23,584 nucleotides of DNA, from UHGV virus genome UHGV-1336742, one strand, 5' to 3'. The stretch's first letter is position 1. The number at the start of each line of letters is the position of its first letter. Shown here one piece after another: positions 15,023 to 17,961 of the stretch. Under the pieces are notes generated by a model, which made no database searches, was not told the DNA's origin, and saw only the letters and a program-made list of their open reading frames with translations. A program made the translations under genes and the position numbers. The stretch comes from a virus.

Positions 15023-15178
15023 TTACTCCTCAGGTTCGTAAGCTGTGAAGACAGCGACCTCCGTCTGGCCGGTTCGGATTCGTACCTCGCAGAGGTCTTT
15101 CCTCGTTACCAGTGCCGTCACTATGACGGTTAAACAGATGACGATCAGGGCGATTAACATCGCCTTTTGCTGCTTCAT
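15023..15178 (-). CDS. hokD: Hok-family type I toxin (51 aa)
   Basis: MKQQKAMLIALIVICLTVIVTALVTRKDLCEVRIRTGQTEVAVFTAYEPEE: Hok/Gef family; AAGGAG Shine-Dalgarno 9 nt upstream. The track ORF extends in frame upstream to 15235 (mok-like leader). Confidence 0.85.
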   Translation of the reverse strand: MKQQKAMLIALIVICLTVIVTALVTRKDLCEVRIRTGQTEVAVFTAYEPEE

Positions 15179-15389
15179 AGCCTGCTTCTCCTTGCCTTCC
15201 GGCACGTAAGAGGCTAACCTACATGTGTCTAGCATGAAATTGGCCTCAGATTAATGTTAAGCGTCTTGCAGGACGCGTAATGTTAACTGGGGCTTTTCTC
15301 TATCTGCCTTTGGTGTTCATGCCCGAGGCAGATAGCCTCAAGCACCCGCAGCCATTCTACTTAACTACCTTTACCTCGCCAATATGAAA

Positions 15390-15479: not shown

Positions 15480-15681
15480 CACAACCTCCTGTATTGGACG
15501 TACACCAGTCCTGATGAATATGAGGCTGTCTCGTCAGTGATTCAATACAACTATTGGGTATAGTTTCTCTGATTTTTTCTGTGGAAATGGGACATTACAA
15601 CCTATCGCCACCAACAATTGAGACGCTAATCGCCCCATCTCGTAACCTTATCCAAAACGGGGCCTAAATCATGGCAATTGA

Positions 15682-15894
15682 CTAACGTTTCTGAGTAGAT
15701 AATGCCCTGAAGTAAGCGTTGCTAATCGATTGATAAATCTCAATATCTTCAGAACCTGCAAGTTCGACATACTCACTCTCACATGTAGACGGTTGAGCAG
15801 TGTGTTGGACACTTCTCGTGTTCGAGTGGATTGTTCCTATACTAACTTCTGTTAATATAGGTAGTTCCAACTGGTTTCTGTCGTTTTTTTTCAT
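15682..15894 (-). CDS. Hypothetical small protein (70 aa) immediately downstream of the deaminase gene
   Basis: ORF (M)KKNDRNQLELPILTEVSIGTIHSNTRSVQHTAQPSTCESEYVELAGSEDIEIYQSISNAYFRALSTQKR; an in-frame GTG overlaps the deaminase stop (GTGA); no clear Shine-Dalgarno. Confidence 0.3.
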   Translation of the reverse strand: MKKNDRNQLELPILTEVSIGTIHSNTRSVQHTAQPSTCESEYVELAGSEDIEIYQSISNAYFRALSTQKR

Positions 15895-15899
15895 ATAAA

Positions 15900-17537
15900 T
15901 CACTCAAGCCTCAACAAGTTAAGTTTATTACTATCAACTTCAGCAATAACTACCTGTTCTAATTTAGGAATCGCTTTGAGACTAACGCTATCCACAGGCA
16001 TAGCCGCACCCTCTGTCGCTAACTCTAGCACCCCAGCTTTAGATTTTCGAGATCCAGATTCAAAAAGCTCAAGAAACCTAGTTGGAGCTACTCCATCAAA
16101 TTGTATCAATTTCACTTTTTCATCCGTCTCGATTACTGATTCGGTCATCGCATCCGAATGAAGTTTAAGAGCTAAGCTTTTTCTATACGGCTCAATAAAA
16201 TATACTTCAGAGATACCAGAAGCGATAATATGCCTTGCGCAGGAATGACATGGATAGGTTGTTACAAATATTTTTCCGCCTAAAATTCTTTCTCCTGCCA
16301 CACGAGATGCGCCAAGAATCGCGTGCATTTCTGCATGAACCGCTCTTGAAAACTCTATTAAATCTTTTAATCGTGAGTTTTTTATAATAGTTTGAATCGC
16401 CGCTTCTCTTTTTTTTACAGGGATTATTTTTTCCTGTACAAGGCTATCAATGACAACTTCAGCCAATATTCTCTTTTCCGCATCATTCGAGCAATTTCTA
16501 TTTTGTAATGTATAACAACGATGATCAGGATCAATAACTTTTAAGCGGATAGATTGTTTACCATAGAGACCACCACCATTACGAGGCACATCATTCCAAC
16601 CGGTAGAAAGAAGTTCTCCAGATGAAGATGTTACTGCAGCACCAACTTGTCTTGATAGACATGCAGAATTACGAGCCGCTGAGGTGGCTGCATACATTGC
16701 ATTTTCCTCTTCAGTCGGTGATATAACTGAACTCCTAAAAATTAGCTTAAAGAAACGTTCCAGTTTAGATAGAATTTGGCCTTTAGCATCGGCATTTCCT
16801 GGCTCTGCCAACCCACTGTCAACCCGCAAAAAGTAATCACACTTCGGGAAAGTGTCTCTAACTGATTGCCCATGATCGAACTCTTCACCAGAATCGGTAT
16901 TGATTAGTTCAGCAATATCTTCAACGCTTAGTCTATTAATTTTTGAAAGATTTTCACGCCTTGCCTCTAAAGGGGAAAATACACCTATAGAGAAAATCAT
17001 TTTTCCATAGATTGATTTCAACAACTCAAGCTCAGAAGAGTTTTTAACTGAGTCAATAATATGACAAATTTTTTGATTTTTAATCTTACTCGCTTCCCCT
17101 TTGCTGGATTCATTAACAATATCATCAAATTCACCAAAGTTTTTTTTACGCTCGGCGCTAATTTTAGCAATAGCTAATTTTGCAAGAATATCACTACCAT
17201 AAATTTCACGAAGTTTATCACCCACAGTTATAAGTGACTTGAATTTCTTTAGATTAGTGCTTTCATCAATATTAATTGATGTATATTTTGAATTAATCCG
17301 GATTAGATCACTCAAGCGTATGTCGTATGTTTTATAGCCATATTTTTTAAGCGAGAATGATATCTGCTCAGCAGTCTCATGTAGCGGTGAACCAATTGGC
17401 CCACAAAGTGCGATTATAATCTCTGGAGTAACACTGTCTTTTATTTCTTGAGTTGCATTAATTGTTGACAGCTCGGCAACATCATCATTCCCAACAAGTT
17501 GAAACTCTTGACTTTTATCTAAGGCTGTGCCTTGCAT
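15900..17537 (-). CDS. 545-aa dCMP/cytidine-deaminase-domain protein with a non-canonical N-terminal domain; candidate nucleotide-depletion anti-phage defence deaminase
   Basis: Zinc-deaminase signature HAEMHAIL...PCHSCARHIIASGISEVYF preceded by SAARNSACLSRQVGAAV; N-terminal roughly 260 aa holds a Gly-rich ALCGPIGSP segment lacking canonical Walker-A GK[ST]; gene is AT-rich and sits where K-12 Qin has relBE. Confidence 0.8.
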   Translation of the reverse strand: MQGTALDKSQEFQLVGNDDVAELSTINATQEIKDSVTPEIIIALCGPIGSPLHETAEQISFSLKKYGYKTYDIRLSDLIRINSKYTSINIDESTNLKKFKSLITVGDKLREIYGSDILAKLAIAKISAERKKNFGEFDDIVNESSKGEASKIKNQKICHIIDSVKNSSELELLKSIYGKMIFSIGVFSPLEARRENLSKINRLSVEDIAELINTDSGEEFDHGQSVRDTFPKCDYFLRVDSGLAEPGNADAKGQILSKLERFFKLIFRSSVISPTEEENAMYAATSAARNSACLSRQVGAAVTSSSGELLSTGWNDVPRNGGGLYGKQSIRLKVIDPDHRCYTLQNRNCSNDAEKRILAEVVIDSLVQEKIIPVKKREAAIQTIIKNSRLKDLIEFSRAVHAEMHAILGASRVAGERILGGKIFVTTYPCHSCARHIIASGISEVYFIEPYRKSLALKLHSDAMTESVIETDEKVKLIQFDGVAPTRFLELFESGSRKSKAGVLELATEGAAMPVDSVSLKAIPKLEQVVIAEVDSNKLNLLRLE

Positions 17538-17961
17538 GCCCTTATCCTAATTAATAGTATTTTTCCCTCTTTATAGCTAATTAAGATAAATGTTGCAAAG
17601 TAATATTGCACATGAAACTTGAGTTAGTAATCCTTTTGACTAGATGGTTTGACCTGCGCCCTATAGATAAACACACTACGCTGTTAGCAACGTTCGCTTC
17701 TGGCACAAAGCAGGCACCACACTAGTTCTTCCCTGTACCATAAAAATGTCAATTCACATATGAACAAATGCTATTTAATCTAAAAATGTCTATAAATACC
17801 GTGTAATTCACTGATAAAATGCCAATATTCACTGAATAACTTCACTCCTCCGGTACTCGCGACAGATTATGTTTAGGTGACTGTCGTAGCGACGTATTTC
17901 TCCGTCAGGTAATGACCAGATAAGGTCCGGATCAACCACAGCGGGTTTCTTCACCTTCGCC

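What the first reader, a model, noticed from the sequence alone, without database searches (positions are those of the whole stretch)
15682..17840. AT-rich dCMP-deaminase-domain protein replaces relBE next to hokD: candidate nucleotide-depletion anti-phage defence module
The 545-aa ORF has an unmistakable zinc-deaminase signature (HAEMHAIL...PCHSCARHIIASGISEVYF; dCMP-deaminase style IIASGISEVYF) fused to an N-terminal domain of about 260 aa whose Gly-rich ALCGPIGSP segment is not a canonical P-loop. Phage defence by kinase-like plus dCMP-deaminase fusions that deplete dCTP is established knowledge, and one described variant is held in check by a small RNA encoded next to the gene. Here the gene is AT-rich, sits where K-12 Qin has relBE, is followed by a stop-overlapping 70-aa ORF, and is preceded by about 290 bp of non-coding sequence (17538-17830) containing short inverted and direct repeats. 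The degenerate N-terminal motif, the possible partner ORF and the long leader could mean a variant architecture.
Basis: partly seen in the sequence, partly recalled or inferred. Interest (0 to 1): 0.8.

Follow-up and report, generated by a model that had tools for sequence, protein, structure and literature searches.

The report
Anti-phage dCTP deaminase with clamp-motif partner

Summary
The 545-aa ORF (15900-17537, minus strand) is real. It belongs to the known anti-phage dCTP deaminase family: NCBIfam NF041025 scores 463 bits against a cutoff of 400, PADLOC dCTPase gives E 8e-169, and RefSeq already names the identical protein this way. It lies in a Qin-like prophage where K-12 has relBE.

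The leader-sRNA idea is not supported. A conserved sigma-70 promoter (TTGCAA-17-TATAAA, 17598-17570) sits 33-61 nt before the ATG. Nothing upstream of it is conserved beyond relatives of at least 97% identity. As a control, the AvcI regions of Vibrio cholerae-type and V. parahaemolyticus-type loci are 74% identical over about 400 nt.

The 70-aa downstream ORF (15682-15894) is the new element. All 79 loci of this deaminase clade, across several phyla, have a small ORF abutting the deaminase stop codon, and it is under purifying selection (pN/pS 0.24). In 68 of 79 it carries an N-terminal Q-L-x-L-x-F motif (here QLELPI). That matches the beta-clamp-binding consensus and resembles Hda QLSLPL. Its C-terminal motif is clade-specific. 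Loci representing the tested system types (AvcID types, AW1.7 itself, a U09-type locus) lack it and are only 29-35% identical.

The locus is a new variant of a known system. Clamp binding and the partner's role are inferred, not shown.

The parts
15611..17706 (-). Mobile module: promoter, deaminase gene, small partner gene and 3' tail. This stretch recurs at about 97% DNA identity in unrelated contexts in other Enterobacterales.
   Evidence: blastn against L083-L093. Identity runs from window 17693/17706 to 15646. A further 35-37 nt (15647-15611) lie about 730-770 nt further away in the other loci. GC is 0.379.
17570..17598 (-). Sigma-70-type promoter: -35 TTGCAA (17598-17593), 17-nt spacer, -10 TATAAA (17575-17570). 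The inferred transcription start is near 17563, giving a 5' UTR of about 26 nt with an AGGA/AAGGG ribosome-binding site.
   Evidence: This is the only upstream block conserved in relatives of 80-88% protein identity (L096, L099, L101, L003). See the alignment, the 52-nt blast block and the sequence. The tool's promoter scan missed it because the -10 ends in A.
15900..17537 (-). Anti-phage dCTP deaminase, 545 aa: N-terminal P-loop-kinase-like domain plus C-terminal zinc dCMP/dCTP deaminase domain.
   Evidence: NCBIfam NF041025 scores 463.1 bits against a cutoff of 400. PADLOC dCTPase gives E 7.9e-169. Pfam PF00383 matches. The AF2 model has pLDDT 82.7. Foldseek matches dCMP deaminases and adenylate-kinase-related proteins. 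The protein is 100% identical to RefSeq WP_021516101.1.
17385..17405 (-). Walker-A-like nucleotide-binding motif CGPIGSP (C45-P51). G46 and G49 are invariant across 95 family members.
   Evidence: The AvcD types carry the equivalent GLCGLIGAG / GLCGYVGCG.
16239..16337 (-). Zinc and catalytic motif HAE(x25)PCHSC (H401, E403, C430, C433).
   Evidence: These residues are invariant in alignments A2 and A3.
15682..15894 (-). Small partner gene, 70 aa (alternative GTG start at 15903 gives 73 aa). It starts 5 nt after the deaminase stop codon, so it is probably translationally coupled.
   Evidence: It is conserved in all 79 loci of this deaminase clade that had at least 200-220 nt of sequence downstream of the deaminase. 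pN/pS is 0.24 at pS 0.76 against L096. The alignment is A1. It has no Pfam, NCBIfam or PADLOC family and is not annotated in RefSeq SJC33.
15856..15873 (-). N-terminal QLELPI motif (residues 8-13) of the partner. It is of the beta-sliding-clamp-binding type (QLxLxh).
   Evidence: 68 of 79 partners have Q-h-x-h-x-h in the first 45 aa, against a mean of 3.5 (maximum 10) in shuffles. The strict motif occurs in 44 of 79 partners against 0.28% of control ORFs. Hda has 6-QLSLPL-11 (PMC5397184). The consensus is QL(D/S)LF (PMC6511837).
15709..15747 (-). C-terminal DIEIYQSISNAYF motif (residues 50-62) of the partner. It is clade-specific and is the inferred docking site for the cognate deaminase.
   Evidence: Other deaminase subclades have different partner C-termini..NTKSF..ILNRKME..HLY..KLxW.
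17707..17830 (-). Distal part of the 'leader'. It belongs to the prophage backbone, not to the module, and contains three 11-13-nt direct repeats (ATTGACATTTT-like, 17741-17826).

Best explanation
This is a two-gene anti-phage nucleotide-depletion operon carried as cargo by a defective Qin-like prophage.

The enzyme. Gene 1 encodes a dCTP/dCMP deaminase of the AvcD/DCD family, with a P-loop-kinase-like N-domain and a zinc deaminase C-domain. By family knowledge, it converts dC nucleotides to dU nucleotides after infection and so starves phage DNA synthesis. It is transcribed from its own conserved sigma-70 promoter immediately upstream. There is no AvcI-like leader RNA.

The partner. Gene 2 starts 5 nt after the stop codon of gene 1. 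It encodes a 70-aa bipartite protein: a basic N-terminus with a QLELPI motif of the beta-clamp-binding type, a variable linker of about 35 aa that is probably disordered, and a C-terminal IYxSISxNYF motif that changes with the deaminase subclade.

Inferred mechanism. The partner binds its cognate deaminase through the C-terminal motif and the DnaN sliding clamp through the N-terminal motif. It thereby takes the regulatory place that the AvcI RNA holds in AvcID systems. It could do this in two ways. It could restrain the enzyme until infection changes the partner's abundance or clamp availability. Or it could tether the enzyme to replisomes.

Shown here: family membership, domain architecture, promoter conservation, absence of a conserved leader, and conservation, coding selection and motif enrichment of the partner.

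Inferred only: enzymatic activity, phage protection, partner-deaminase binding, clamp binding, and whether the partner inhibits or activates.
For: Enzyme identity:
- Family models and domains.
- AF2 model and fold matches.
- RefSeq annotation of the identical protein.

Mobility and defence context:
- The protein is 97-100% identical across many Enterobacterales genera.
- In other genomes the gene sits in lambdoid prophages or in islets next to type I restriction, Abi_alpha, Mrr, RES and BstA genes.
- Here it lies beside hok/sok.

Promoter and leader:
- The promoter is the only conserved upstream block.
- In the positive control, the AvcI regions of V. cholerae-type and V. parahaemolyticus-type loci are 74% identical over 399 nt at 81% protein identity. 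The window and L096 share only 52 nt at 88% protein identity.

Partner gene:
- It is present in 79 of 79 loci of this clade.
- pN/pS is 0.24.
- Conservation is bipartite, at the two ends only.
- The motif occurs in 68 of 79 partners against 3.5 expected.
- The strict motif occurs in 44 of 79 partners against 9 of 3160 control ORFs.
- A small downstream ORF is absent in 53 of 75 AvcD-type loci. Six loci representing the tested system types also lack a clamp-motif partner.
- The motif matches Hda QLSLPL and the QL(D/S)LF consensus.
Against: - No experiment or complex prediction was possible, so clamp binding rests on a six-residue motif.
- A conserved motif could equally contact a conserved surface of the deaminase itself.
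- No deaminase-partner fusion proteins were found in 1.84 billion representative proteins.
- 11 of 79 partners lack the motif by my pattern (one of them, L052, carries the canonical pentamer QLSLF, which the hexamer pattern misses).
- No tested member of this subclade is known to me, so even phage protection is by homology. Identity to the AvcD-type reference loci, AW1.7 and the U09-type locus is 29-35%.
- In 4 of the 7 complete E. coli genomes that carry this allele the deaminase is frameshifted. This shows the gene is dispensable or costly.
Confidence: 0.6

Rival explanations
1. The small protein is a conventional labile protein inhibitor (a type II-like antitoxin encoded after its toxin) that binds only the deaminase. 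The QLxLxF segment would contact a conserved surface of the enzyme, for example by beta-strand addition. The sliding clamp would play no part. Activation would follow host shut-off through decay of the partner.
For: - The two-gene layout is tightly coupled.
- Known systems of this family need an inhibitor, and AvcI decays on transcription shut-off (PMC10511110).
- The deaminase core is itself highly conserved, so a conserved motif need not imply a universal host target.
- The partner and the AvcI-type architecture are close to mutually exclusive.
Against: - The motif matches the clamp-binding consensus in residue identity and in its N-terminal placement, as in Hda.
- Nothing else in the partner is conserved across phyla, whereas the presumed deaminase-docking C-terminus changes by clade.
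Confidence: 0.28
2. This is an AvcID-like type III toxin-antitoxin system. On this reading a small RNA from the roughly 290-nt leader (17538-17830) binds and inhibits the deaminase.
For: - In AvcID, the AvcI/DifV RNA is encoded immediately 5' of the deaminase gene in the same orientation. AvcI sequences of distant systems are dissimilar (bioRxiv 10.1101/2021.03.31.437871).
- About 156-169 nt of the leader travel with the gene among relatives of about 97% DNA identity.
Against: - The conserved -35/-10 lies 33-61 nt from the ATG, which leaves a UTR of only about 26 nt.
- Upstream sequence is not conserved in relatives of 80-88% protein identity, whereas real AvcI regions are 74% identical at 81% protein identity.
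- The fold z-score is -0.37, and there is no Rfam match.
- The distal 124 nt and its repeats are prophage backbone.
Confidence: 0.06
3. The small protein is a second effector rather than a regulator. On this reading it is a clamp-cleft blocker that arrests clamp-dependent DNA replication alongside dCTP depletion.
For: - It has a clamp-binding-type motif on a short, apparently unstructured protein.
- Toxin-antitoxin systems that target the sliding clamp exist (title and abstract of PMC12795458, seen).
Against: - Its C-terminal motif co-varies with the deaminase subclade, which points to binding the enzyme.
- Constitutive co-expression of a clamp blocker from the same promoter would be toxic.
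Confidence: 0.05
4. The gene is a housekeeping dCMP deaminase paralogue or a decaying relic with no defence role.
For: It is frameshifted in 4 of the 7 complete E. coli genomes that carry it.
Against: - ComEB scores 43 bits against a cutoff of 219.
- It is prophage- and island-borne, AT-rich, and near-identical across genera.
- The ORF in this window is intact and all catalytic residues are present.
Confidence: 0.01

Closest known systems
AvcID (DcdV-DifV) of Vibrio cholerae VSP-1, with the V. parahaemolyticus, Proteus mirabilis and E. coli ETEC homologues (Hsueh et al.)
   Same: - The enzyme has the same architecture: a P-loop-kinase-like domain plus a dCMP/dCTP deaminase domain.
- It has the same non-canonical Walker-A-like motif and the same HAE...PCxxC site.
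- It is carried on mobile elements.
- Identity is 33-35% over nearly the full length.
   Different: - No AvcI-type RNA gene is present. The promoter abuts the gene and no leader is conserved.
- A conserved 70-aa protein gene follows the enzyme instead. That gene is absent from the V. cholerae-type, V. parahaemolyticus-type and E. coli AvcD-type loci examined.
Anti-phage dCTP deaminases of E. coli AW1.7 and U09 (Tal et al.)
   Same: - All hit the same NCBIfam and PADLOC family.
- All have a C-terminal deaminase domain.
- All are island- or prophage-borne single-enzyme nucleotide depletion systems.
   Different: - Identity is only 29%, and only over the C-terminal 350 aa or so.
- AW1.7 has a canonical-looking GRTGSGCTT P-loop and a longer N-domain (576 aa).
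- It has no downstream partner ORF.
Clamp-binding-motif proteins such as Hda (N-terminal 6-QLSLPL-11)
   Same: The partner has an N-terminal Q-L-x-L-P-h hexapeptide at residues 8-13. Its composition across 68 partners is Q / L / E,S,K / L,F,I / D,P,E / F,L.
   Different: The partner has no AAA+ or other domain. It is a 70-aa protein of a defence operon. Binding to DnaN is untested.
Toxin-antitoxin pairs with the toxin gene first (for example higBA, mqsRA; my own knowledge)
   Same: The layout is a translationally coupled two-gene operon in which the potentially toxic enzyme precedes a small partner.
   Different: No DNA-binding antitoxin domain was detected. Neutralisation is untested. The inverted repeat at the promoter is not conserved.

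Membership tests
Anti-phage dCTP deaminase (NCBIfam NF041025; PADLOC dCTPase) | Score above the curated whole-protein cutoff of the equivalog model | tested here: met
   The score is 463.1 bits against a cutoff of 400, covering residues 39-496. The PADLOC model PDLC02373 gives E 7.9e-169.
Anti-phage dCTP deaminase (NCBIfam NF041025; PADLOC dCTPase) | Two-domain architecture: N-terminal P-loop-kinase-like domain plus C-terminal dCMP-deaminase fold | tested here: met
   The AF2 model has pLDDT 82.7. Foldseek matches dCMP deaminases (2w4l, 2hvw, 1vq2, 4p9c, 7fh4) and adenylate-kinase-related proteins (3lw7, 3h0k, 2ukd).
Anti-phage dCTP deaminase (NCBIfam NF041025; PADLOC dCTPase) | Intact zinc and catalytic motif HAE...PCxxC, plus the N-domain glycine motif that defence requires in tested members | tested here: met
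   H401, E403, C430 and C433 are present. G46 and G49 are invariant in 95 sequences. Mutations of the corresponding motifs abolish activity in AW1.7 and in V. cholerae DcdV.
Anti-phage dCTP deaminase (NCBIfam NF041025; PADLOC dCTPase) | Phage protection with infection-dependent depletion of dCTP | not testable with these tools
   This needs plaque assays and LC-MS of nucleotide pools.
AvcID type III toxin-antitoxin system | A non-coding RNA of about 150-300 nt encoded immediately 5' of the deaminase gene, in the same orientation and co-transcribed | tested here: not met
   The conserved promoter lies 33-61 nt upstream of the ATG. No upstream conservation is seen at 80-88% protein identity, whereas the Vc/Vp positive control is 74% identical over 399 nt. 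The fold z-score is -0.37. There is no Rfam hit.
AvcID type III toxin-antitoxin system | Post-translational inhibition of the deaminase by that RNA | not testable with these tools
   This needs co-expression and toxicity assays.
AW1.7/U09-type dCTP deaminase subclade (Tal et al.) | Close sequence relationship, including the GxxGxGC[TS]-type P-loop N-domain | tested here: not met
   Identity is 29% over residues 151-493 only. The N-terminal motifs differ: CGPIGSP here against GRTGSGCTT in AW1.7.
Beta-sliding-clamp-binding proteins (clamp-binding motif) | A QL(S/D)LF or QLxLxh peptide in a flexible terminal region | tested here: met
   QLELPI occupies residues 8-13. Enrichment is 68 of 79 against 3.5 expected. 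The adjacent linker is variable and rich in indels.
Beta-sliding-clamp-binding proteins (clamp-binding motif) | Physical binding to the hydrophobic cleft of DnaN | not testable with these tools
   No complex prediction or binding assay was available.
Type II (protein-protein) toxin-antitoxin system | A small partner protein that neutralises the toxin and usually autoregulates through a DNA-binding domain | tested here: inconclusive
   The coupled two-gene layout is present. No domain was detected in the partner. The promoter inverted repeat is not conserved. Neutralisation is untested.
Housekeeping dCMP deaminase (ComEB / Dcd type) | Score above the equivalog cutoff, single-domain enzyme, core-genome location | tested here: not met
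   TIGR02571 scores 43 bits against a cutoff of 219. The protein has two domains. The gene is prophage-borne and present in only 7 of 5426 complete E. coli genomes.

The most novel reading that the evidence does not exclude
A large subfamily of anti-phage dCTP deaminases is regulated or targeted by a tiny disordered adaptor protein rather than by an RNA antitoxin. This adaptor would couple the enzyme to the beta sliding clamp. Nucleotide-depletion immunity would then be wired to the replisome, either by sensing the burst or collapse of clamp-loaded DNA during infection or by depleting and corrupting dC nucleotides at replication forks.
Probability: 0.4. Interest if true: 0.85.

Novelty: new variant of a known kind. 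Interest (0 to 1): 0.62.

Why it matters
How nucleotide-depleting defence enzymes are held in check and triggered is known for only one branch, AvcID, through decay of a labile RNA.

This locus represents a widespread sister branch, found in Proteobacteria, Bacteroidota and other phyla. In it the RNA slot is empty and a conserved, almost never annotated 50-90-aa protein follows the enzyme.

If that protein binds DnaN, it would be a direct physical link between an immune effector and the replication machinery. It would also give a testable trigger mechanism.

On the practical side, defence-system annotation (PADLOC, NCBIfam, RefSeq) treats this as a one-gene system and misses the partner. Cloning the deaminase alone may therefore give misleading toxicity or defence phenotypes.

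Tried and rejected
- Leader RNA. Rfam at permissive thresholds found only sok next to hokD and nothing in the leader. Folding of 17538-17706 was no better than shuffles. Alignment of upstream regions showed only a promoter block.
- Promoter scan. The consensus scan missed the promoter because of its rule for the -10 hexamer.
- Structure. The first AF2 run, on a shallow alignment, was unusable (pLDDT 42). A deeper alignment fixed this. A sequence search of the PDB found only single-domain dCMP deaminases.
- Partner homologues. The word-indexed search found only 6 clusters. An HMM search of 1.84 billion representatives found 27 hits. About 19 of these are small proteins, and the long hits look like low-complexity matches. 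No deaminase-partner fusions appeared, so there is no Rosetta-stone support.
- Other collections. The GenBank phage collection had no match. The plasmid collection had one hit, a Pantoea megaplasmid.
- ETEC H10407. I could not locate this locus directly. I used V. cholerae-type, V. parahaemolyticus-type, a 5.8-kb-plasmid E. coli type and a chromosomal E. coli AvcD-like locus as stand-ins.
- Literature. Searches linking dCTP deaminase or AvcD with clamp binding returned nothing relevant. The Nature Microbiology versions of the two founding papers were not available, so I used the preprints.
- Promoter inverted repeat. I considered it as an operator and rejected it for lack of conservation.
Full report
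**1. The observation**

The 545-aa ORF at 15900-17537 (minus strand) exists. It carries the zinc-deaminase signature HAE(x25)PCHSC (H401, E403, C430, C433) and the glycine-rich CGPIGSP segment at residues 45-51. The module is AT-rich, with GC 0.379 against 0.46-0.50 in the flanks.

K-12 Qin reads rem-hokD-relE-relB-ydfV-flxA-ydfW-ydfX-dicC-dicA. The window has the deaminase module between hokD and a DUF977 remnant followed by Cro/dicC-like and dicA-like genes. So the module does occupy the relBE slot.

The small ORF after the gene and the 293-nt non-coding stretch before it are both present. The leader contains short repeats.

**2. What the large gene is**

The protein passes NCBI's curated equivalog model 'anti-phage dCTP deaminase' (NF041025, 463 bits against a cutoff of 400, residues 39-496). 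It matches PADLOC's dCTPase model at E 7.9e-169, with Pfam dCMP_cyt_deam_1 in the C-terminal part.

A usable AlphaFold model was obtained with a 95-sequence alignment (pLDDT 82.7, pTM 0.83). It matches dCMP deaminases of human, Streptococcus mutans, phage T4, cyanophage S-TIM5 and chlorovirus. In its N-terminal half it matches adenylate-kinase-related P-loop proteins. No full-length relative has a solved structure.

The identical protein is already annotated 'anti-phage dCTP deaminase' (WP_021516101.1) in E. coli SJC33, in the same prophage position. The gene itself is therefore a known kind of defence gene, not a new candidate. The housekeeping alternative fails: ComEB scores 43 bits against a cutoff of 219.

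**3. Mobility**

Only 7 of 5426 complete E. coli genomes carry this allele, and in 4 of them it is frameshifted. Yet proteins 97-100% identical occur in Cronobacter, Citrobacter, Enterobacter, Klebsiella, Raoultella, Serratia, Yersinia, Pantoea, Providencia, Morganella and others.

Comparison with these contexts (a Klebsiella/Raoultella lambdoid prophage and a small chromosomal islet) delimits the mobile unit at window 17693/17706 to 15646. A further 35-37 nt (15647-15611) lie about 730-770 nt further away in the other genomes.

More distant relatives sit beside type I restriction, Abi_alpha, Mrr, RES and BstA genes and integrases. That is typical defence-island company.

**4. Relation to the tested systems**

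AW1.7 itself and a U09-type locus (located with the U09 upstream sequence from the preprint's Table S5; its gene identity to U09 was not checked), representing the two enzymes tested by Tal et al., are 576-577 aa long. They have a GRTGSGCTT P-loop and are only 29% identical to the window protein over the C-terminal 350 aa or so.

The AvcD type is 33-35% identical over nearly the whole length. This covers the V. cholerae-type locus next to vspR, a V. parahaemolyticus-type locus, an E. coli type on 5.8-kb mobilisable plasmids, and a chromosomal E. coli type. All of these share the G-x-x-G-[S/A/C] motif.

V. cholerae DcdV carries Ser52 at the Walker-A position that the authors targeted.

**5. The leader**

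In AvcID the AvcI/DifV RNA is encoded immediately 5' of the deaminase gene, in the same orientation and on the same transcript. Its minimal active length is about 152-174 nt and the transcript is about 280 nt.

In this window, aligning the upstream regions of relatives with 80-88% protein identity shows a single conserved block: TTGCAA, 17 nt, TATAAA (17598-17570). It is followed by a UTR of about 26 nt with a ribosome-binding site. Everything upstream of the -35 has diverged completely.

As a positive control, the V. cholerae-type and V. parahaemolyticus-type enzymes are 81% identical, and their upstream AvcI regions are 74% identical over 399 nt. The window and L096 enzymes are 88% identical and share only 52 nt, which is the promoter.

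The 169 nt that co-travel among the closest relatives fold no better than shuffles (z -0.37). Rfam finds nothing there.

The three direct repeats lie at 17741-17826, outside the mobile unit. The inverted repeat around the -10 and the ribosome-binding site is not conserved.

An AvcI-like RNA is therefore unlikely, though not formally excluded, because AvcI RNAs of distant systems share no sequence.

**6. The small ORF is the real finding**

The 70-aa ORF (ATG 15894 to stop 15682) begins 5 nt after the deaminase stop codon. I used two locus sets for this test. One came from a scan of one genome per species and contains deaminases 37-81% identical to the window protein, from Enterobacterales, Burkholderiales, Rhodocyclales, Rhizobiales, Bacteroidota, Nitrospirota and a CPR bacterium. 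The other came from close-relative look-ups.

Every locus with enough downstream sequence (79 of 79) has an ORF of 47-113 aa (median 66) starting between -80 and +60 nt of the deaminase stop codon.

It is protein-coding. Against an 88%-identity relative, pS is 0.76 and pN is 0.18, a ratio of 0.24.

The alignment shows two conserved ends and a variable, indel-rich middle. The pattern is M-(basic)-QLELP[IV]L ... AS..D..IY.SIS.NYF.

The gene has no Pfam, NCBIfam or PADLOC family and is not annotated in RefSeq SJC33. It is represented by only 6 clusters in a 5.8-billion-protein collection. An HMM search of 1.84 billion representatives found about 19 small proteins.

**7. The motif**

Across phyla the C-terminus of the partner changes with the deaminase subclade. 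The classes are IYxSISxNYF, ...NTKSF, ...ILNRKME, ...HLY and ...KLxW. The N-terminal motif stays the same.

Of 79 partners, 68 have Q-h-x-h-x-h within the first 45 residues (median start at residue 12). The composition is Q / L / E,S,K / L,F,I / D,P,E / F,L. Shuffles of the same proteins give a mean of 3.5 and a maximum of 10.

The strict form QL.[LIF].[FL] occurs in 44 of 79 partners. It occurs in 9 of 3160 other small ORFs of the same loci.

This is the bacterial beta-clamp-binding motif. The consensus is QL(D/S)LF (PMC6511837). The N-terminal hexapeptide of Hda, 6-QLSLPL-11, inserts into the clamp cleft (PMC5397184). The window protein has QLELPI at residues 8-13.

**8. Mutual exclusivity with the AvcI-type layout**

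A metagenome scan with an AvcD-type profile gave a control set, which I analysed together with the first set.

- Deaminases nearest the window type: 79 of 79 have the downstream ORF, and 68 of those carry the motif.
- Deaminases nearest the AvcD types (75 loci): 53 have no downstream ORF, 13 have an ORF without the motif, and 9 have one with the motif.
- Those 9 form a borderline group, 35-38% identical to either reference, whose partners end in ...KLxW.

None of the six loci representing the tested system types has a clamp-motif partner.

**9. Mechanism**

Shown here:
- family membership and domain architecture;
- the gene's own promoter;
- lack of a conserved leader;
- a conserved, selected, translationally adjacent partner with a clamp-type motif.

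Inferred from family knowledge: infection-triggered deamination of dCTP/dCMP to dUTP/dUMP, which starves phage DNA synthesis.

Inferred from anatomy:
- The partner docks on its cognate deaminase through the clade-specific C-terminus. I estimate this at about 0.75.
- It docks on DnaN through the N-terminal motif. I estimate this at about 0.5.
- It fills the regulatory role that AvcI has elsewhere. Whether it inhibits, activates or localises the enzyme cannot be decided here.

The main rival is a plain protein antitoxin whose conserved N-terminal strand contacts the conserved enzyme core. The present data cannot separate the two.

**10. Verdict**

- the defence deaminase is correct but already known and annotated;
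- the variant P-loop is wrong;
- the leader sRNA is unlikely;
- the partner ORF is correct and important.

The locus is a new variant of a known kind: an anti-phage dCTP deaminase with a conserved clamp-motif micro-protein in place of an RNA antitoxin. I found no paper in the searchable library that links these deaminases to clamp binding or describes the partner. The final journal versions of the founding papers were not available to me.

Noticed in passing
window 18024-18030, and ORFs 17829-18086 and 17962-18177 (minus strand): Relative to E. coli SJC33 the window lacks about 1.76 kb. The missing stretch holds the phage O-like replication gene, ydaT and parts of the DUF977 and Cro genes. The two alignment pieces overlap by 7 nt at the junction. 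What remains is a P22_Cro-like N-terminus running into a DUF977 remnant, so the prophage here is further degraded.
   Followed up: partly
L002 (NZ_OZ040973.1) 5501-7139, and three sister genomes: In 4 of the 7 complete E. coli genomes with this allele the deaminase is split by a frameshift into a 'deaminase' and a 'hypothetical protein'. This suggests the gene is costly or dispensable in some lineages.
   Followed up: no
window 15611-15647; L083 5892-6696; L090 5857-6330: In other genomes about 730-770 nt separate the small ORF from the last 35-37 nt of shared sequence. That stretch includes an rve (integrase-core) fragment in some loci. The 35-37 nt fall inside the 3' end of an uncharacterised reverse-strand gene (396 aa or 198 aa, no Pfam hit). 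The window has lost this stretch, so the original mobile unit was probably larger.
   Followed up: partly
window 15023-15347 (minus strand): The hokD toxin ORF and a full-length sok antitoxin RNA match (Rfam RF01794, 117 bits, 15173-15347) lie immediately beside the module.
   Followed up: no
window 17741-17826: Three direct repeats of 11-13 nt (ATTGACATTTT-like on the minus strand) are spaced 40 and 33 nt apart. They lie in the prophage backbone just outside the mobile module. Their function is unknown; they could be binding sites of a prophage protein.
   Followed up: no
L172, L182, L185, L190-L195 (metagenome contigs): A borderline deaminase group, 35-38% identical to both the window type and the AvcD type, has partners with the same N-terminal QLxLxFE motif but a different C-terminus ending in ...KLxW. 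This extends the partner family beyond the window's clade.
   Followed up: partly
L110-L112 (contigs of about 5.8 kb): An E. coli AvcD-type deaminase (P0146, 532 aa) with a 61-aa upstream 'ORF' sits on small mobilisable plasmids. The neighbours are MobC/relaxase, a Rep protein and relE/mqsA-like genes. A reverse-strand gene starts 10 nt after its stop codon, so it has no partner ORF.
   Followed up: no
window 3200-4438 and 4600-5592 (minus strand): A complete tyrosine integrase gene (Arm-DNA-binding plus Phage_integrase domains) lies next to a terminase large-subunit ORF that has only the ATPase domain (330 aa). This suggests another element inserted into, or recombined with, the prophage's packaging region.
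   Followed up: no
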